A stretch of DNA of 64,000 nt from Parcubacteria group bacterium. GTDB taxonomy: Bacteria; Patescibacteriota; Patescibacteriia; UBA2169. Location of the stretch: NCBI GenBank assembly GCA_016181765.1, contig JACOYR010000004.1, positions 115,937 to 179,936 on the forward strand. The letters run 5' to 3'. The notes beneath the pieces are model-generated. The model did not search any database. It was not told the origin of the DNA and saw nothing but the letters and a program-made list of their open reading frames with translations. Below are positions 9,387 through 29,072 of the stretch, one piece after another (position 1 is the first letter of the stretch; each line of letters opens with the position of its first letter). The translations under genes were made by a program, and so were the position numbers.

Positions 9387-9461
9387 GCCGCTATCGTCTA
9401 ATGGTCAGGACGCCAGGTTCTCATCCTGGCAATCGGGGTTCGATTCCCCGTAGCGGTACCA
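9387..9461 (+). tRNA. tRNA-Glu (anticodon CTC), CCA encoded
   Basis: Cloverleaf: acceptor GCCGCTA/TAGCGGT, anticodon loop TTCTCAT, T-loop GGGGTTCGATTCCCC. Confidence 0.85.
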
Positions 9462-17246: not shown

Positions 17247-17380
17247 TCTTTATCAACAGTTTTGGTGACTTATCCCCACTTCCATCCACCTTTCACCACT
17301 GTGCAGGTATTATACACCACTTTGCATTTCATCACAACCCCCTGCAAGAGGGGTTTTACGCACAACTTATTCACAACAGC

Positions 17381-20289: not shown

Positions 20290-21176
20290 TACTCACCTCC
20301 CTTTCGGGTTGGGGTTATCCTGCGTTGAGGTTGAACAACGTCAGTCACATCATCCTTAAACCCCCCGTGCTCGCGCGGCCAATCGTGGATGGCATTCACA
20401 AGCGTGTCATAGGGATAGATAAACTCTTCACCGCGCCGTGTGCCAGGATCATTGGTGATAAACTGCGTTGGCGTGTACCCGCGGATGATGAGCATGTGGT
20501 ACAGGGGCCCGTCTCCGGTAAAATTTGGGTTCCCGAGCATCCGGCCCGCAGCAGGGATAATGACGAGCTTGTTTGATGAGATGCGGCGCTTGATGTTATC
20601 AACGCTCACATCATCATCCAGCACTGCGGAACCCTTAAAATATTCCTGCCAGATGAACGCCACTTCTGCGGCTGTGGTGTCTTCGTAGTACCCGAACGTA
20701 TTCTGCTCCCAGGCAACCAGTTCTCTGATTGCCTCATCCATTTGTTCCGCGGACAAACTCTCGCCGAAAAAAAATCTATCAGCCATGATAAGGGACGCTT
20801 CTTCGCACGCTTCCTGATAGGGCAATGACCAATCAGCATGCGGAGCTTGGGATTGGAACGGGACCGCAAGGTTGTACTCAACCGGAATTCCCCCTCCTGT
20901 AACTCCGGGGTCCCCAGAAACTGCCGAAGGCATTTCTGGGGTGGAACTGAGGGGGACGGGGGGTGGTGACGCGCCCTCGCTGTCATTGCGAGGAGCCCCG
21001 TCCGGCGCATCATTAAGATTGCTTCGCTCCCCCGCCGAATCGGCGGGTTCGCTCGCAATGACATCAGAGTATGGAACAGCCTCCGGCAAACCAGGCTCTT
21101 GGTTTGCATACCAAATAATTACAGCCCCTATAATGACGATAATTACAAAAATTTTTTTCATAAAAAAGTTATCCAC
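20289..21176 (-). CDS. Membrane-anchored secreted C39-like peptidase domain protein with low-complexity linker containing an in-frame repeat copy
   Basis: N-terminal TM, candidate Cys (EACEEAS) and His (YHMLIIRGY) of C39_2-like fold; repeat at 20890-20968 encodes PPPVPLSS...GGGI. Confidence 0.5.
   Translation of the reverse strand: MDNFFMKKIFVIIVIIGAVIIWYANQEPGLPEAVPYSDVIASEPADSAGERSNLNDAPDGAPRNDSEGASPPPVPLSSTPEMPSAVSGDPGVTGGGIPVEYNLAVPFQSQAPHADWSLPYQEACEEASLIMADRFFFGESLSAEQMDEAIRELVAWEQNTFGYYEDTTAAEVAFIWQEYFKGSAVLDDDVSVDNIKRRISSNKLVIIPAAGRMLGNPNFTGDGPLYHMLIIRGYTPTQFITNDPGTRRGEEFIYPYDTLVNAIHDWPREHGGFKDDVTDVVQPQRRITPTRKGGE
20890..20968 (+). repeat. Palindromic repeat copy 6, expanded by ~50-bp internal insert, inside C39-like peptidase gene
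   Basis: ccccctcct ... gagggggacggggggtggtg flank an inner hairpin ccagaaa..ttctgg. Confidence 0.55.
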
Positions 21177-21185
21177 AATAACCTA

Positions 21186-21214
21186 TTTGACTTTCGGTTT
21201 TTCTTCGGCTATTA
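21186..21214 (+). promoter_or_regulatory. Putative sigma70-type promoter TTGACT-N17-TATTAT upstream of the 111-aa ORF/lexA operon
   Basis: Near-consensus -35 and -10 hexamers with 17-bp spacer. Confidence 0.4.
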
Positions 21215-21244
21215 TAAAACCATAACAAACGAAAAGAAAAATAT

Positions 21245-21580
21245 ATGGCAACCTCCCTCTTCCAACTCACGCTCGCGATTACCCCGGCTCTCCTGGTGGG
21301 CGCTTTTTTAAAGCGCGTAACCATGCCCTGGGAAAAAGAGAAGCGCCCCAATGAGCGCGCTATTCTACTCCGCATGCTCGCCAAGGACGTAAGCCGCGTC
21401 AAAACCATTATGGCCGCAAACATTGCGGCAGTCAACCAGGGCCGCGCGTGCACCGTACGCAGGCTCCCCCTCTCCAACTGGAACCGCCTCAAAAAAGACA
21501 CGCGCTTCCACAAGTATTCAAGCGAACCCATTTTCCGGCACATGATCAGCCAGTTCCGCGAATGGGAGCGCGCCTATTAA
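21245..21580 (+). CDS. Hypothetical protein (111 aa) immediately upstream of lexA
   Basis: Stop 2 nt before lexA start; same strand. Confidence 0.3.
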   Translation: MATSLFQLTLAITPALLVGAFLKRVTMPWEKEKRPNERAILLRMLAKDVSRVKTIMAANIAAVNQGRACTVRRLPLSNWNRLKKDTRFHKYSSEPIFRHMISQFREWERAY

Positions 21581-21581
21581 T

Positions 21582-22169
21582 ATGACCATCATCTTACCAA
21601 ACAAAAAACAGCAGCTGCTTGATTTTTTGAAATCATACGTCAAGGACCGGGGATACGCGCCCACGCTCTCGGAGATCGCGAAAAAATTCAAGGTCTCGTC
21701 CCTAGCTACGGTGCACGAGCACATGGCGTTTTTGGAGAAGCACGGGTTCATCAAGCGCACGGGCAACATCCAGTCCCGGGAACTTGAAATTGTGAGGAGC
21801 GGAAGCAATGTGGAACCAACCTTCCTGGAAGGCAGCATGCACTCCCTGCCCCTGGTTGGATTGATTACCGCAGGAGCGCCCATTGAGGCAGTGGAGAACC
21901 GCGAAGCGGAGATCGCGGTGCCCGCGGAGATTACGCGCGGCAGGCAGTGCTATATGGACGGGGATTTGGTGATTGTGGAAAAAACCGAATACGCCAAGAA
22001 CGGGGACATGGTGGTTGCGGTGCTGGATGATGGAACCGCGACTCTGAAGAAGTTCTACAAGGAAAAGAACTACGTGCGCCTTCAGCCCGCGAACGCCAAG
22101 TACCAACCCCTGATGGTTGAGAATGTGATCATTCGCGGCAGGGTGGTGGGGATTATCAGGAAGTACTAA
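21582..22169 (+). CDS. lexA: LexA-like repressor (wHTH plus S24 peptidase domain)
   Basis: N-terminal LexA DNA-binding domain (GYAPTLSEIAKKF), Ala-Gly site (ITAGAP), MDGDLVIV and Lys (TLKKFYK) of S24 fold. Confidence 0.8.
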   Translation: MTIILPNKKQQLLDFLKSYVKDRGYAPTLSEIAKKFKVSSLATVHEHMAFLEKHGFIKRTGNIQSRELEIVRSGSNVEPTFLEGSMHSLPLVGLITAGAPIEAVENREAEIAVPAEITRGRQCYMDGDLVIVEKTEYAKNGDMVVAVLDDGTATLKKFYKEKNYVRLQPANAKYQPLMVENVIIRGRVVGIIRKY

Positions 22170-22208
22170 ATTTTGGGTGCAAGCAGTTTTTTCTGCTATA
22201 ATTTAGAT

Positions 22209-23165
22209 ATGCCGAAAATACATAAAAAAAGAAAAACGGTACTGGAACTTTGCGCGGGCGGTGGTGGACAATTTTTAGGATTAGAAGGGGCGGGATTTGA
22301 TTGTGTCGGCGCTGTTGAAATAGAGGAAGAGTATTGCCGAACTCTTACGCACAACCGACCCGGCCTAAACGTTATAAATTACGATTTAAAGCAATTTAAT
22401 GCGAAAAATTTTTTAGGGGTTGATTTAGTCGCAGGCGGGGTTCCCTGTCCTCCATTTTCCATTGCGGGCAAACAGCTAGGACAAAAGGACGATAGAGATT
22501 TATTTCCCTATGCGCTCAAAATAATAGGGCAAGCCGACCCAAAAGCGGTATTGCTTGAAAATGTTCCCGGCCTGGCTTCGGCAAAATTTGCAACCTACAG
22601 AAGAAATATTCAAAAAAAATTAACTGATTTGGGTTATTGGTCTGATTGGAAAATATTAAATGCTTCCGATTTTGGGGTGCCGCAATTGAGGCCTAGATTT
22701 ATATTGGTGGCGGTAAAAAACGGATTAAAAAATTTTTTTGAATGGCCGAGGACTCTCTCAACTAAAGTTACGGTTGGAGAAGCCCTCTTTGATTTAATGT
22801 CAGCCAATGGCTGGACAGGCGCGCATAAGTGGTTGAAAAAAGCAAACAATGTCGGCCCAACCTTAGTGGGAGGTTCAAAAAAACACGGCGGGCCTGATTT
22901 GGGGCCAACACGAGCGCGAGAGCAATGGAAAAATTTGGGAGTTGACGGATTAGGCATTGCCGATTCTGCTCCGGAAATAAAATTTCCACATAACAAACTA
23001 CCAAGGTTGACCGTGCGCATGACTGCCCGTATCCAGGGCTTCCCGGATTCCTGGCATTTTCCGGGGCGAAAAACTTCATCATACAGGCAAATTGGCAACG
23101 CTTTTCCACCCGCAGTCGCCAAAGCAGTTGGGTTTAGAATCATCAAAGCCATCCAAACAACATGA
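22209..23165 (+). CDS. DNA (cytosine-5)-methyltransferase (type II R-M, M subunit)
   Basis: Motif I LELCAGGGG, motif IV GGVPCPPFS, motif VI ENVPGL; AT-rich island. Confidence 0.9.
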   Translation: MPKIHKKRKTVLELCAGGGGQFLGLEGAGFDCVGAVEIEEEYCRTLTHNRPGLNVINYDLKQFNAKNFLGVDLVAGGVPCPPFSIAGKQLGQKDDRDLFPYALKIIGQADPKAVLLENVPGLASAKFATYRRNIQKKLTDLGYWSDWKILNASDFGVPQLRPRFILVAVKNGLKNFFEWPRTLSTKVTVGEALFDLMSANGWTGAHKWLKKANNVGPTLVGGSKKHGGPDLGPTRAREQWKNLGVDGLGIADSAPEIKFPHNKLPRLTVRMTARIQGFPDSWHFPGRKTSSYRQIGNAFPPAVAKAVGFRIIKAIQTT

Positions 23166-23734
23166 AAAGAGACAGGGAGAAAGGATCAAAACAAAAAATT
23201 CTTGATTTCCTTACCGATAATATCGGGAAAGTCGTAAACTCAAAGGAAATTCAAGAGGCTTCTGGCTGGGCCGCTGAATGGGCACGGCGCGTCCGTGAGC
23301 TGCGCGATGAACAGGGGTATCAAATTCTGTCGCACAAAGACCGCGCTGATTTGAAGCCAGGACAGTACATAATGGCCACCAAAAAAAGAAAACCGGCTTT
23401 TGCTCGCGGCATTTCCAAGGAAACAAAAGCTATAGTGTTGGAAAGAAACGGTTTTACCTGTCAAAGCTGCGGCTTAGCAGCAGGCGATCCCGACCCTTTT
23501 CACACTGGCAGGACTATCCGCCTTACTATGGGCCATATTATTGATAAATCAAAAGGCGGTCCAGATTCTCCCGAAAATTTAAAAGCTATGTGTACAAACT
23601 GTAACGAAGGATTACAGAATGCCGCCCTACCAAAACCCAATACAGTCCAGCTTCTGGCGCAGGTCAGAAGAGGCACCATTGAGAGTCAACAAGCCGTTCT
23701 TGATTGGCTTATAAAAAAATACAAAAAGCATTAA
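23162..23734 (+). CDS. HNH endonuclease, probable cognate restriction enzyme (ATGA start/stop overlap with methyltransferase)
   Basis: CxxC...H-N..CxxC HNH motif (CQSCG...GHIIDKSKGG...NLKAMCTNCN) preceded by wHTH-like domain. Confidence 0.75.
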   Translation: MKRDREKGSKQKILDFLTDNIGKVVNSKEIQEASGWAAEWARRVRELRDEQGYQILSHKDRADLKPGQYIMATKKRKPAFARGISKETKAIVLERNGFTCQSCGLAAGDPDPFHTGRTIRLTMGHIIDKSKGGPDSPENLKAMCTNCNEGLQNAALPKPNTVQLLAQVRRGTIESQQAVLDWLIKKYKKH

Positions 23735-23743
23735 CACTAGTAC

Positions 23744-24202
23744 ATGCAAGTTCACAATCCCGATTACTATAACGTTGCGCTCAAAATTATCTTAAAAAAT
23801 AAAAAAGGGAAAATTTTAGTACTCAAAAACGCCGAAGAGACCGGGGAAGGTGATTATTATGATATGCCCGGGGGTAGAATTAACACGGATGAATTTACCA
23901 CTCCATATGAAACACTTATTGACCGAGAATTAAAAGAGGAGATTGGAGGAGATGTAAAATATAAATTATCGCTTGATCCAGTTTCGTTTGGGCGACATGA
24001 ATATTTTTCTGTACGTCAAAAAAAAGAAATCCGCGTATTCTACCTGCTCTTTGAGGCAGAATATATTGCAGGTGTCCCCATAGTATCTCATGAGCACAGC
24101 GGCTATAAATGGTTGCGCCTAGAAAATATTCCATTTGAAAAATACTTTATAAAGGGAATGCTTGAGTCTGTGAAGCGATACGCGGCAAATCAAAAATCTT
24201 GA
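23744..24202 (+). CDS. NUDIX hydrolase
   Basis: Nudix box GGRINTDEFTTPYETLIDRELKEEIG. Confidence 0.85.
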   Translation: MQVHNPDYYNVALKIILKNKKGKILVLKNAEETGEGDYYDMPGGRINTDEFTTPYETLIDRELKEEIGGDVKYKLSLDPVSFGRHEYFSVRQKKEIRVFYLLFEAEYIAGVPIVSHEHSGYKWLRLENIPFEKYFIKGMLESVKRYAANQKS

Positions 24203-24263
24203 TTCACAAACAAGTATCTGATATAATGCAAACGTACTAGCGCAACTACAGATACCAGTTCAG

Positions 24264-24296
24264 AAAAACAGCCGATGCTATCGGCTGTTTTTCTTT
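24264..24296. terminator. Bidirectional rho-independent terminator (aaaaacagccgatgctatcggctgttttt)
   Basis: Perfect stem flanked by A-run and T-run between convergent nudix and rluB. Confidence 0.7.
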
Positions 24297-25021
24297 TTGA
24301 GTGATGCAATCTCCTGCGGAGTAAGTTGCCGGTACGCGCCCTCCTTGAGGCCGCCGAGTTTGATCGGGCCCATGCGTACGCGCGTGAGGGATACCACGGA
24401 TGCGCCGATGGCGTTGATCATCTGCCGCACCTGGTGCTTGCGGCCCTCGTGGATGGCGATGCAAATGAGGTACTGGCGCGCTCCAATCTTTTTGATGAAG
24501 CGCGTTTTGGCGGGGCTTGTTCTGCCGGTGGTGATCTTCACACCCTGCCGGAGCCGCTCCAGCCCTTTCTTGAGAAGCCCGGCTCCCCAGTTGCCCGGAA
24601 TCTCCACCACTGCCTCATATTCTTTCTCGTGCTCAAACTTTGGGTGCGTGAGCTCGTACACGAGCTCCCCGTCGTTCGTGAGAATGAGGAGGCCCGTGGT
24701 ATCAACATCAAGCCTGCCCACCGGAACGATCCGTTCCCGCGTTTTGACGATATCTAAAACTGTTGTGCGGCCGCGGTCATCATGCGCGGTTGAGAGCACG
24801 CCTTTGGACTTGTGCAGCAAAAAATAGACTTTAGAGCCTTCGTGTCCAAGCGGTTTGCCGTTTATGGTGATGCGGTCGCGCTGTACCTCAACCCGCGTTC
24901 CGAGTTTCGTGATCTTTTGGCCGTTGACCTTGACTCTGCCCGCACGGATCAGTTTTTCAGCGGCGCGGCGCGAGGCAGCCCCGGCGTCCGCAATTGCTTT
25001 CTGCAGCACCACTCCCTCCAT
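24278..25021 (-). CDS. rluB: 23S rRNA pseudouridine synthase RluB/RsuA family
   Basis: S4 domain plus catalytic VGRLDVDTTGLLILTNDGEL motif. Confidence 0.9.
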   Translation of the reverse strand: MEGVVLQKAIADAGAASRRAAEKLIRAGRVKVNGQKITKLGTRVEVQRDRITINGKPLGHEGSKVYFLLHKSKGVLSTAHDDRGRTTVLDIVKTRERIVPVGRLDVDTTGLLILTNDGELVYELTHPKFEHEKEYEAVVEIPGNWGAGLLKKGLERLRQGVKITTGRTSPAKTRFIKKIGARQYLICIAIHEGRKHQVRQMINAIGASVVSLTRVRMGPIKLGGLKEGAYRQLTPQEIASLKKKNSR

Positions 25022-28890: not shown

Positions 28891-29072
28891 ATGGCGTGGA
28901 TGAGACAAACTAAAAAATCTGCGGAAATTCCGCAGACGGGGCATAACAGCTGATCAACCGCAATGGGCTCTACCTGCTGCTTGTTCCTCGGCAGGTCATT
29001 GAGCTCCGGAGAGCGCCTGCTGTCTGCGGAAACATAGGTTTAAGGGCATACTACTACAACCCGGGAATGGTG
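28891..29072 (-). promoter_or_regulatory. Possible rplJ leader / L10 autoregulatory structured 5' UTR
   Basis: ~180-nt untranslated leader with hairpins (atctgcggaaattccgcagac) before rplJ; identity not verifiable by eye. Confidence 0.25.

What the first reader, a model, noticed from the sequence alone, without database searches (positions are those of the whole stretch)
22173..24202. AT-rich type II R-M module (m5C MTase plus HNH nuclease, ATGA-overlapped) plus Nudix hydrolase, immediately downstream of a LexA-like repressor
These three genes are markedly AT-richer than the flanking 60% GC DNA. The segment is bounded on the right by a strong bidirectional terminator, which suggests lateral acquisition. 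The HNH protein has an N-terminal wHTH-like domain typical of HNH-family REases. The Nudix gene sits 9 bp downstream. The S24-family repressor directly upstream, with a near-consensus promoter, might control the module.
Basis: partly seen in the sequence, partly recalled or inferred. Interest (0 to 1): 0.5.

Follow-up and report, generated by a model that had tools for sequence, protein, structure and literature searches.

The report
Mobile restriction-modification pair beside lexA
A small, widely travelling two-gene restriction-modification unit (a cytosine methylase plus an HNH nuclease) recently landed just after the lexA gene of a Parcubacteria genome, next to an older Nudix gene; it is an ordinary defence module and shows no sign of LexA control.

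Summary
22173-24202 holds three same-strand genes: an m5C methyltransferase (true start 22209), an HNH nuclease (ATGA overlap) and a Nudix hydrolase. At 43% GC (GC3 0.33-0.42 against 0.71-0.74 in neighbours) it is the most AT-rich 2-kb stretch of the window. It ends at a real 15-bp bidirectional terminator.

The MTase-HNH pair is a self-contained mobile type II R-M cassette with its own promoter. The nuclease family is at least 69% identical across 425 species representatives from many bacterial phyla and an archaeon. A DNA methyltransferase sits directly upstream in 79 of 79 readable loci (35 m5C type, 44 N4/N6 type). Flanking genes are otherwise unrelated.

The closest relatives have lexA and rluB convergent with nothing between them. 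One relative has lexA-nudix-rluB without R-M genes, and its Nudix is also AT-rich. Nudix is therefore an older resident of the slot and not part of the R-M module.

LexA control is not supported. The conserved candidate operator (TTCGG-N6-TTCGG) occurs only at lexA's own promoter. Instead, the lexA stop/terminator junction behaves as a recurrent landing site with a GTACTAG motif at every junction, and another relative carries a different R-M system there. The recognition sequence remains undetermined.

Verdict: a new member of a known kind, of modest interest.

The parts
21187..21215 (+). Promoter of the orf111-lexA operon (TTGACT-17-TATTAT). Its spacer holds the direct repeat TTCGG-N6-TTCGG (21193-21208), a candidate LexA operator. 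A perfect DnaA-box consensus TTATCCACA lies at 21169-21177.
   Evidence: Promoter scan. The block GTTATCCACA...TTGACTTTCGGTTTTTATTCGGTTAT is conserved in 9 relatives of 33-57% GC. It is the only exact TTCGGN6TTCGG in the window.
21245..21580 (+). orf111, a conserved hypothetical gene and the first gene of the lexA operon (host gene, context only).
   Evidence: Called as a gene and syntenic in L007, L097, L098 and L181. No Pfam or PHROG hit.
21582..22169 (+). lexA (host gene). The window allele carries a 42-bp in-frame deletion at 21955/21956 that removes the catalytic-Ser motif (ILKVRGDSMVESLIS).
   Evidence: TIGR00498, PF01726 and PF00717. The alignment with the 209-aa alleles of L007/L009 and the otherwise 100%-identical DNA are.
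22163..22169 (+). Left junction motif GTACTAA (the last lexA codons plus the stop).
   Evidence: Sequence.
22170..23743 (+). Inserted mobile type II R-M cassette (1,574 bp): promoter, MTase and HNH nuclease.
   Evidence: The cassette is absent from the closest relatives L097, L098, L099, L103 and L181. Homology with cassettes in other phyla begins just after the lexA stop and ends at the HNH stop. GC3 is 0.39-0.42.
22194..22202 (+). Extended -10 promoter element TGCTATAAT of the cassette. It lies 6 nt upstream of the MTase ATG, which implies a leaderless or near-leaderless mRNA.
   Evidence: Read from the sequence. TATAAT-like elements occur at the same place in cassettes from L018, L023, L027 and L020. 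The consensus scan did not report it because the -35 is weak.
22209..23165 (+). C5-cytosine DNA methyltransferase (318 aa) with motifs I (LCAGGGG), IV (PCPPFS), VI (ENV), VIII (QLRPR) and X (GNAFPP) intact.
   Evidence: PF00145 3.6e-69. TIGR00675. Alignment to M.HhaI and 3g7u. 83% identical to the L027 copy.
23162..23734 (+). HNH (beta-beta-alpha-Me) restriction endonuclease, 190 aa. It has an N-terminal winged helix (residues ~9-73) and a C-terminal HNH core with a Cys4 zinc site (C100, C103, C144, C147) and H125/N139/N148.
   Evidence: Pfam. PADLOC REase_II 5e-17. PDB sequence hits to the ScoMcrA and EcoKMcrA HNH domains. Invariant residues. AF2 and Foldseek. A MTase lies upstream in 79/79 loci.
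23736..23743 (+). Middle junction motif ACTAGTAC. It contains CTAGTAC, the reverse complement of GTACTAG, and that 7-mer is unique in the window.
23744..24202 (+). Nudix hydrolase (152 aa). It is lineage-specific, an older resident of the lexA-rluB slot, and not part of the R-M cassette.
   Evidence: PF00293 2e-11. Only 6 homologs were found. Orthologs occupy the same slot in L181 (78%), L100, L101 and L104-L106 (53-63%).
24234..24261 (+). Right junction: GTACTAG plus the ancestral lexA-downstream spacer. This stretch follows the lexA stop directly in the empty-site relative L098.
   Evidence: Alignments. GTACTAG is unique in the window. The 37 nt upstream resemble lexA 3' ends (20/37, P~1e-4), but that part is uncertain.
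24262..24294 (.). Bidirectional intrinsic terminator shared by the lexA-side transcription unit and the convergent rluB gene.
   Evidence: 15-bp stem with a T-run. MFE -23.6 kcal/mol, z -3.9. It is conserved in L097 and L098 directly after lexA.
24278..25021 (-). rluB/rsuA-type pseudouridine synthase (host gene, right flank).
   Evidence: PF00849 + PF01479. Syntenic in all relatives.

Best explanation
The AT-rich segment holds two separate things that occupy one insertion-prone slot between the lexA stop codon and its terminator. (1) 22170-23743 is a recently acquired, self-contained, promiscuously mobile type II restriction-modification cassette. Its own extended -10 promoter drives an m5C methyltransferase. 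A translationally coupled (ATGA) HNH endonuclease follows, and its N-terminal winged helix presumably reads the target sequence. The methylase protects a short cytosine-containing site in host DNA, and the nuclease cuts that site when it is unmethylated in incoming DNA. As with other R-M pairs, the unit may also behave as a selfish addiction module. (2) 23744-24202 is a lineage-specific Nudix hydrolase that entered the same slot earlier; relatives keep it without any R-M genes. LexA is the neighbour because its 3' flank (motif GTACTAG) is a recurrent landing site, not because it regulates the module. Shown here: gene content, intact catalytic motifs, obligate MTase-HNH pairing, breadth of transfer, empty and intermediate sites, and the composition break. 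Inferred: cleavage of unmethylated DNA, dimeric action, a leaderless transcript, the order of the two insertions, and use of GTACTAG as target.
For: Composition: GC 0.43 against 0.556, the lowest 2-kb window; GC3 0.33-0.42 against 0.71-0.74. R-M identity: PF00145 and HNH domains; PADLOC MTase_II and REase_II; all MTase motifs align to M.HhaI; the HNH Cys4 + H/N/N residues are invariant in 33 homologs. Obligate pairing: 79/79 loci have a MTase directly upstream of the HNH gene, 35 PF00145 and 44 PF01555; the same pairing occurs on plasmid pGT2 and in Pandoraea apista. Mobility: 425 species representatives in >10 phyla plus Methanoperedens at >=69% identity; flanks are heterogeneous; the cassette is AT-richer than its host in 80% of loci. 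Vsr lies next to the MTase in 8 loci, as expected for an m5C system. Boundaries: homology starts after the lexA stop and ends at the HNH stop. Empty sites: L097 (LexA 95%), L098, L099, L103. Intermediate state: L181 has lexA-nudix-rluB. Hotspot: L100 carries an N6-MTase + S subunit + MTase fragment in the same slot and L101 carries two AT-rich ORFs; L027 has the same cassette after an unrelated S24 gene. The GTACTA motif is at all three junctions. No operator lies in the island.
Against: No biochemical or methylome data exist, and the recognition sequence could not be assigned. Avoidance analysis gives only a weak GGCC signal (O/E 0.68 against 0.82) and is confounded by host taxonomy. The HNH core is most similar to methyl-dependent McrA-type nucleases. 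The LexA operator used for the negative test is itself inferred from conservation, not demonstrated. No terminator separates lexA from the MTase, so SOS-linked read-through cannot be excluded. Nudix is as AT-rich as the cassette, and the ancestral lexA junction lies after it, so co-transfer of all three genes from a relative that already had lexA-RM-nudix is not fully excluded.
Confidence: 0.8

Rival explanations
1. The module is an SOS-controlled R-M system. LexA represses it, or co-transcribes it, so that restriction and modification respond to DNA damage.
For: The cassette lies between the lexA stop and the lexA terminator, with only a 39-bp gap and no intervening terminator. A second Parcubacterium has the same cassette directly after an S24 gene. 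A relative has a different R-M system in the same place.
Against: The only conserved operator-like element (TTCGG-N6-TTCGG) is at lexA's own promoter and nowhere in the island. The cassette carries its own promoter, shared with copies in unrelated hosts. 77 of 79 other loci have no S24 neighbour. The closest relatives have lexA without any R-M genes. The two S24 proteins are only 24% identical while the MTases are 83% identical, so the insertions were independent and there is no co-evolved unit.
Confidence: 0.1
2. All three genes (MTase, HNH, Nudix) arrived together as one ~2.06-kb block inserted at the lexA stop codon, from a lower-GC relative in which the cassette already sat between lexA and nudix.
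For: All three genes have similarly low GC3. The ancestral 'GTACTAG + spacer + terminator' junction lies after Nudix. The closest relative L097 lacks all three genes.
Against: L181 (LexA 93%) has lexA-nudix-rluB with the same ancestral spacer after Nudix and no R-M genes. Its Nudix is also AT-rich in a 57% GC host. Nudix identity to relatives tracks host-gene identity: 78% against RluB 75%, and 58-63% against 55-60%. A junction motif also lies between HNH and Nudix. No cassette locus elsewhere carries this Nudix.
Confidence: 0.12
3. The HNH protein is not the cognate restriction enzyme. It is either a methylation-dependent (type IV, McrA-like) nuclease or a Vsr-like repair nickase that merely accompanies an orphan methylase.
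For: The best sequence and structure matches of the HNH core are EcoKMcrA, ScoMcrA and TagI. One source annotates a homolog as McrA. A distant homolog is fused to Vsr in Pandoraea oxalativorans.
Against: The pairing is strict and usually overlapping, with a MTase in 79/79 loci drawn from two unrelated MTase families. That pattern is expected for a protect-and-cut pair and would be suicidal for a methyl-dependent nuclease of the same specificity. A separate Vsr gene is present alongside the pair in 8 loci. The N-terminal domain is a small winged helix, not the McrA 5mC-reader domain. The protein matches PADLOC REase_II models better than type IV models (5e-17 against 1e-6).
Confidence: 0.06

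Closest known systems
Orthodox type II (IIP-like) R-M systems with an m5C methyltransferase and an HNH (beta-beta-alpha-Me) endonuclease, e.g. Hpy99I; other HNH type II enzymes such as KpnI and PacI (named from my own knowledge of the literature)
   Same: Two-gene MTase + nuclease unit. HNH catalytic core with a zinc-binding Cys4. Small size. Occasional Vsr partner for m5C systems. Lateral mobility without dedicated mobility genes.
   Different: No detectable sequence similarity to the solved type II HNH enzymes: none appears among the PDB sequence hits at E<=1 or among the 50 Foldseek hits listed. The N-terminal winged-helix + HNH architecture has no solved counterpart as a whole. The specificity is unknown. 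The same nuclease family is paired with either m5C or N4/N6 beta-class methyltransferases.
McrA-family type IV HNH nucleases (EcoKMcrA 6ghc, ScoMcrA 5zmm, TagI 6ghs)
   Same: Closest HNH-domain sequence and fold.
   Different: Those enzymes are stand-alone, modification-dependent, and carry large modified-base reader domains. This protein is 190 aa, has a plain winged helix and is always coupled to a methyltransferase.
M.HhaI / M.HaeIII-type small monospecific C5-cytosine methyltransferases (PF00145)
   Same: Length (~318-330 aa), the full motif set and the fold family (phmmer 4e-26 to M.HhaI).
   Different: Motif IV is PCPPFS rather than PCQxFS. The target-recognition domain is unrelated, so specificity cannot be transferred.
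R-M gene units behaving as mobile elements that insert between conserved genes, with short target repeats or by replacing other R-M systems (described in comparative-genomics studies of R-M mobility; named from my own knowledge)
   Same: A bare R-M unit without transposase or integrase. Empty sites in close relatives. Short repeats at the junctions. A different R-M system at the same locus in another relative.
   Different: Here the slot is the lexA stop/terminator junction of Parcubacteria, and a non-defence gene (Nudix) shares the same slot.

Membership tests
Type II restriction-modification system | A DNA methyltransferase with a complete catalytic motif set | tested here: met
   PF00145 full length, 3.6e-69. 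Motifs I, IV (PC), VI (ENV), VIII and X align with M.HhaI.
Type II restriction-modification system | A separate adjacent nuclease gene whose presence is tied to the methyltransferase | tested here: met
   ATGA overlap. A MTase lies directly upstream of the HNH homolog in 79/79 loci. Also seen on a plasmid and in cultured Pandoraea.
Type II restriction-modification system | The nuclease cleaves a defined unmethylated sequence and cognate methylation blocks cleavage | not testable with these tools
   This needs enzymology or methylome data. K-mer avoidance gave only a weak GGCC hint.
HNH / beta-beta-alpha-Me nuclease superfamily | Catalytic His, Asn and a metal-ligand residue on a beta-beta-alpha fold, often with a CxxC...CxxC zinc site | tested here: met
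   PF01844/PF14279. H125, N139, N148 and C100/C103/C144/C147 are invariant. The model has strands 121-125 and 140-144 and helix 145-153. Foldseek matches HNH domains.
Winged-helix DNA-binding domain (N-terminus of the nuclease) | a1-b1-a2-a3-b2-wing-b3 topology | tested here: met
   AF2 model with pLDDT 87-92 over residues 10-70 and elements H9-19, E24-26, H27-33, H40-49, E54-56, E68-73. Zalpha domains match at TM 0.67-0.75, rmsd 2.2-2.5 A.
Type IV McrA-like modification-dependent nuclease | A stand-alone gene with a modified-base reader domain and no cognate methyltransferase | tested here: not met
   The gene is always MTase-coupled. Only the HNH core matches McrA proteins.
LexA (SOS) regulon member | A LexA operator in the promoter region of the gene | tested here: not met
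   The candidate operator TTCGG-N6-TTCGG, conserved at the lexA operon promoter in 10 genomes, has its only exact copy at 21193-21208. Nothing within 1 mismatch lies in 22170-24202. Caveat: the operator is inferred, not demonstrated.
Druantia type II (the PADLOC DruM model is the best hit for the MTase) | DruM methylase together with the large DruE helicase and accessory genes | tested here: not met
   DruM model hit 3e-145, but the neighbours are the HNH, Nudix, lexA and rluB genes only.
Nudix hydrolase superfamily | Nudix fold and Nudix box GX5EX7REUXEEXGU | tested here: inconclusive
   PF00293 is above threshold at 44 bits. By eye the box reads G-x5-E-x10-RELKEEIG, so the first spacer is 3 residues longer than the consensus. 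L100 and L101 share this spacing. The substrate is not inferable.
LexA repressor (the upstream gene) | wHTH + S24 domain with an Ala-Gly cleavage site and a Ser/Lys dyad | tested here: inconclusive
   The domains and the A-G site are present, and Lys is present in the LKKF stretch. The window allele lacks the 14 residues that carry the catalytic Ser. Otherwise-identical population contigs have them.

The most novel reading that the evidence does not exclude
In this Parcubacteria lineage the junction between the lexA stop codon and its terminator (GTACTAG) is a dedicated landing pad that successively captures cargo genes: Nudix, then different R-M systems, and in one relative small AT-rich ORFs. 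This places the cargo inside the SOS transcription unit, so that restriction-modification becomes damage-responsive by read-through. The co-occurring lexA allele that lacks the catalytic serine would then be an adaptation that locks this read-through down after R-M acquisition.
Probability: 0.1. Interest if true: 0.55.

Novelty: new member of a known kind. Interest (0 to 1): 0.3.

Why it matters
It matters little as a mechanism, because this is a standard protect-and-cut defence module. The modest value lies in three points. (1) It documents one of the most widely transferred R-M nuclease families: more than 14,000 database proteins in two subfamilies, at least 69% identical from CPR bacteria to an archaeon, and apparently not yet characterised biochemically, so cloning one member would assign a specificity to thousands of genomes. 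(2) The same nuclease family has swapped between m5C and N4/N6 methyltransferase partners. (3) It gives a clean natural series (empty site, Nudix only, Nudix + R-M, alternative R-M) for studying how genome-reduced CPR bacteria acquire defence genes at a single hotspot next to lexA.

Tried and rejected
(1) TCGA as the cassette's target. TCGA is extremely avoided in the window (5 against ~123), but not in other cassette hosts, so it belongs to some other pressure in this lineage.

(2) Inferring the recognition site from avoidance across 72 host loci (1.04 Mb). Only generic palindrome depletion emerged. Comparing ameliorated with recent hosts singled out GGCC weakly. This is inconclusive.

(3) The first AF2 model, built from a 20-sequence low-diversity alignment, was poor (pLDDT 63) and I did not use it. 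A second model with the sister subfamily added was usable.

(4) My intermediate hypothesis of a single 2,064-bp MTase-HNH-Nudix insert was revised after L181 showed the Nudix-only state.

(5) The idea that the lexA 3' relic extends into the Nudix C-terminus was weakened, because L181 and L183 share the ...RYA(A/S)(N/H)QK ending.

(6) Druantia membership was suggested by the PADLOC DruM hit. I rejected it because no DruE or accessory genes are present.

(7) Two literature searches found no characterised member. The Deinococcus DraI nuclease is a GIY-YIG enzyme, and the Paracoccus HNH is a different 135-aa protein.

(8) Phage carriage: the phage collection has only distant HNH hits (<40% identity).

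(9) No tRNA or Rfam element lies at the insertion site.
Full report
OBSERVATION. The three ORFs are present on the + strand as described. The first is an m5C methyltransferase ORF, 22173-23165. Its likely start is the ATG at 22209, which matches the N-termini of homologs. The second is an HNH nuclease gene, 23162-23734, overlapping the MTase stop as ATGA. The third is a Nudix gene, 23744-24202, 9 bp further on. Pfam supports all three: PF00145 at 3.6e-69, PF01844/PF14279, and PF00293 at 2e-11. The segment has 43.0% GC against 55.6% for the window and is the lowest of all 2-kb windows. Third-codon-position GC is 0.39, 0.42 and 0.33 for the three genes, against 0.71-0.74 in orf111, lexA, rluB and the other neighbours. 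The right-hand terminator is real: a 15-bp stem at 24262-24294 with an A-run before it and a T-run after it and a folding z-score of -3.9. It overlaps the 3' end of the convergent pseudouridine synthase gene. The upstream gene is a genuine LexA (TIGR00498, 144 bits). It is the second gene of an orf111-lexA operon whose promoter lies at 21187-21215. An identical HNH protein is recorded in NCBI under 'Parcubacteria group bacterium'.

WHAT THE MTase-HNH PAIR IS. The HNH protein belongs to a very large and unusually conserved family. There were 6,248 database hits. The top 120 are 73-100% identical yet come from Parcubacteria, Kuenenbacteria, Magasanikbacteria, Verrucomicrobia, Desulfobacterales and the archaeon Methanoperedens. 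In the species-representative genome collection, 425 loci encode a relative. The best 80 are at least 69% identical and span Patescibacteria, Verrucomicrobiota, Acidobacteriota, Planctomycetota, Bacteroidota, Chloroflexota, Nitrospirota, Proteobacteria and Firmicutes. A sister subfamily of about 8,000 proteins, 53% identical, occurs in cultured Acidithiobacillus (on the 14-kb plasmid pGT2, next to a tyrosine recombinase), in Pandoraea apista and in Nitratidesulfovibrio.

In every one of the 79 loci with readable upstream sequence, a DNA methyltransferase lies directly upstream on the same strand. In 35 it is m5C type (PF00145). In 44 it is the unrelated N4/N6 beta-class type (PF01555); the one example I read (L040) has an SPPY motif. 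Beyond the pair, neighbours are unrelated from locus to locus. The one recurring neighbour is Vsr, next to the MTase in 8 loci, which is the usual companion of m5C systems. No integrase or transposase is consistently present. The cassette is AT-richer than its host in 80% of loci, by 3.6 points on average. The window's deficit of about 11 points is among the largest. The obligate nuclease-methylase coupling, the interchangeable cytosine-directed methylases and the promiscuous transfer are the signature of a type II R-M unit.

THE PROTEINS. The MTase has all the catalytic motifs, including the PC dipeptide in PCPPFS, and aligns along its full length with M.HhaI. The nuclease has an invariant CxxC...CxxC zinc site and invariant H125/N139/N148. 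A first AF2 model was poor. After I added the sister subfamily, the model reached pLDDT 81.6. It shows an N-terminal winged helix (a1-b1-a2-a3-b2-b3, residues 9-73) that superposes on Zalpha and Rok domains (TM 0.67-0.75). Its C-terminal HNH core matches EcoKMcrA, Cap5, the Gme nicking HNH and Cas-HNH domains. No solved type II HNH enzyme is a close match by sequence or among the listed fold hits. PADLOC places the protein in type II REase models (5e-17) ahead of type IV models. The best PADLOC hit for the MTase is a Druantia DruM model, but no other Druantia gene is present.

BOUNDARIES AND HISTORY. Alignment of cassette edges from seven other hosts shows where the transferable unit begins and ends. 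Homology begins immediately after the lexA stop codon and includes a TATAAT element; the window has TGCTATAAT at 22194-22202, 6 nt before the ATG. Homology ends exactly at the HNH stop. Relatives of the host were recovered through the pseudouridine synthase gene. Thirteen of these contigs carry part of the HTH/734-aa/rluB/lexA/orf111/C39 neighbourhood, and they form a series. L097 (LexA 95% identical), L098, L099 and L103 have lexA and rluB convergent, with 27-100 bp and only the terminator between them. L181/L182 (LexA 93%) and L104-L106 have lexA-nudix-rluB. L101 has two small AT-rich ORFs between lexA and nudix. L100 has a different R-M-like set in that position: a 610-aa N6-MTase, a type I S subunit and a truncated MTase.

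The sequence that follows the lexA stop in the empty site of L098 is GTACTAG, then a spacer, then the terminator. In the window this sequence is found after Nudix, at 24234 onward. L181 has the homologous spacer and terminator after its Nudix. The Nudix ortholog of L181 is also AT-rich in a 57% GC genome: GC3 0.41 against 0.66-0.85. Nudix identity to relatives tracks that of the host genes. The simplest history is therefore two steps. Nudix entered the lexA-stop/terminator junction earlier. The 1,574-bp R-M cassette then inserted between lexA and Nudix in the window's lineage only. All six population contigs that carry the identical nuclease have the cassette.

A GTACTA-type motif marks all three junctions: 22163 GTACTAA, 23736 ACTAGTAC and 24234 GTACTAG. 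It occurs only 14 times in the window on both strands, and the two 7-mers GTACTAG and CTAGTAC are each unique. This suggests repeated use of one short target at the lexA stop. That reading is an inference.

LEXA CONTROL. The promoter region of the orf111-lexA operon is almost invariant across ten genomes of 33-57% GC. Its -35/-10 spacer carries the direct repeat TTCGG-N6-TTCGG, a plausible autoregulatory operator. Its only exact copy in the window is at that promoter. No copy within one mismatch lies in the island. The cassette has its own promoter. 77 of 79 other cassette loci have no S24 neighbour. The one other case (L027) involves an S24 protein only 24% identical to this LexA, next to an MTase 83% identical to this one, so it was an independent insertion. 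Operator-based LexA control is therefore not supported. Read-through from lexA is possible, because the cassette sits upstream of the lexA terminator. I could not test this.

SPECIFICITY. I could not assign a recognition sequence. TCGA is almost absent from the window (5 against ~123 expected), but it is normal in other cassette hosts, so it reflects another pressure. Across 72 host loci only general palindrome avoidance appears. Comparing hosts with an ameliorated cassette against hosts with a compositionally foreign one singles out GGCC weakly (0.68 against 0.82). The alternation of m5C and SPPY-type methylases argues that a cytosine is the protected base. Literature searches found no characterised member.

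VERDICT. The reading of the pair as a laterally acquired type II R-M module with a wHTH-HNH nuclease is supported. Including Nudix in the module and regulation by LexA are not supported. This is a new member of a known kind. Its modest extra interest comes from the breadth of transfer, the methylase swapping, and the lexA-flank hotspot with its empty, intermediate and alternative states.

Noticed in passing
window, whole; TCGA sites at 1171, 9440, 45319, 46180, 49275: TCGA is extremely avoided: 5 sites against about 123 expected (O/E 0.04). It also occurs 0 times against 16 expected in population contig L007. One surviving site lies inside tRNA-Glu (9387-9461). CTNAG is also depleted (35 against 90). 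Other hosts of the cassette do not avoid TCGA, so this points to a different TaqI-like restriction pressure in this lineage or its partners.
   Followed up: partly
window 21955/21956 (lexA): The window's lexA carries a clean 42-bp in-frame deletion relative to population contigs L007 and L009, which are otherwise 100% identical over 8.2 kb. The deletion removes ILKVRGDSMVESLIS, including the catalytic serine, so this allele should be unable to self-cleave. It could be a real population variant or an assembly artefact.
   Followed up: partly
window 21169-21215 and the homologous regions of L097-L110: The orf111-lexA promoter region is nearly invariant in relatives of 33-57% GC. It has a perfect DnaA-box consensus TTATCCACA, then TTGACT, then the direct repeat TTCGG-N6-TTCGG in the spacer, then the -10. 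This is a candidate LexA operator of direct-repeat type for this lineage.
   Followed up: partly
window 17250-17375: Three DnaA-box-like 9-mers (one mismatch each) cluster within 125 bp in a locally AT-rich stretch (GC 0.41-0.52 around 16.6-18.2 kb). This may be a replication-origin-like region.
   Followed up: no
window 24199-24227: A near-consensus promoter-like site (TTGATT-17-TATAAT, with TG) lies between the Nudix stop and the terminator. It could only drive a transcript of about 60 nt into the hairpin. It may be fortuitous, arising in AT-rich DNA that partly resembles a degraded lexA 3' end.
   Followed up: partly
L040 9125-9985, plus 43 further loci among L033-L096: The same HNH nuclease family (about 70% identical) is paired in 44 of 79 loci with an N4/N6 beta-class methyltransferase instead of an m5C enzyme; the example read, L040, has an SPPY motif. 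The methylase partner has therefore been exchanged during the family's spread.
   Followed up: yes
L100 5249-8497; L101 7483-8246: Relatives carry different cargo in the same slot after lexA. L100 has an N6-adenine MTase (610 aa), a type I specificity subunit and a truncated N4/N6 MTase. L101 has two AT-rich ORFs (177 and 74 aa, 28% GC) of unknown function.
   Followed up: partly
L178 2083-3441 (Pandoraea oxalativorans plasmid pPO70-1): A 452-aa protein annotated as Vsr contains a C-terminal region 35% identical to this HNH nuclease. It directly follows an m5C methyltransferase, so it appears to be a Vsr-HNH fusion.
   Followed up: no
L027/L005 (Parcubacteria, 557-kb contig), HNH at L005 5001-5549: This copy of the nuclease has a divergent, shortened C-terminus (...ILFGNFIPSCKCENQ). 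A PIF1-type helicase gene follows 10 bp later, and an IS200-like Y1 transposase gene lies about 5 kb upstream of the nuclease gene. The copy may have been rearranged.
   Followed up: no
window 28901-29047 (- strand): An ordinary ribosomal protein L10 leader (Rfam RF00557, 48 bits) lies upstream of the L10/L12 genes, consistent with the conserved synteny seen in relatives.
   Followed up: no
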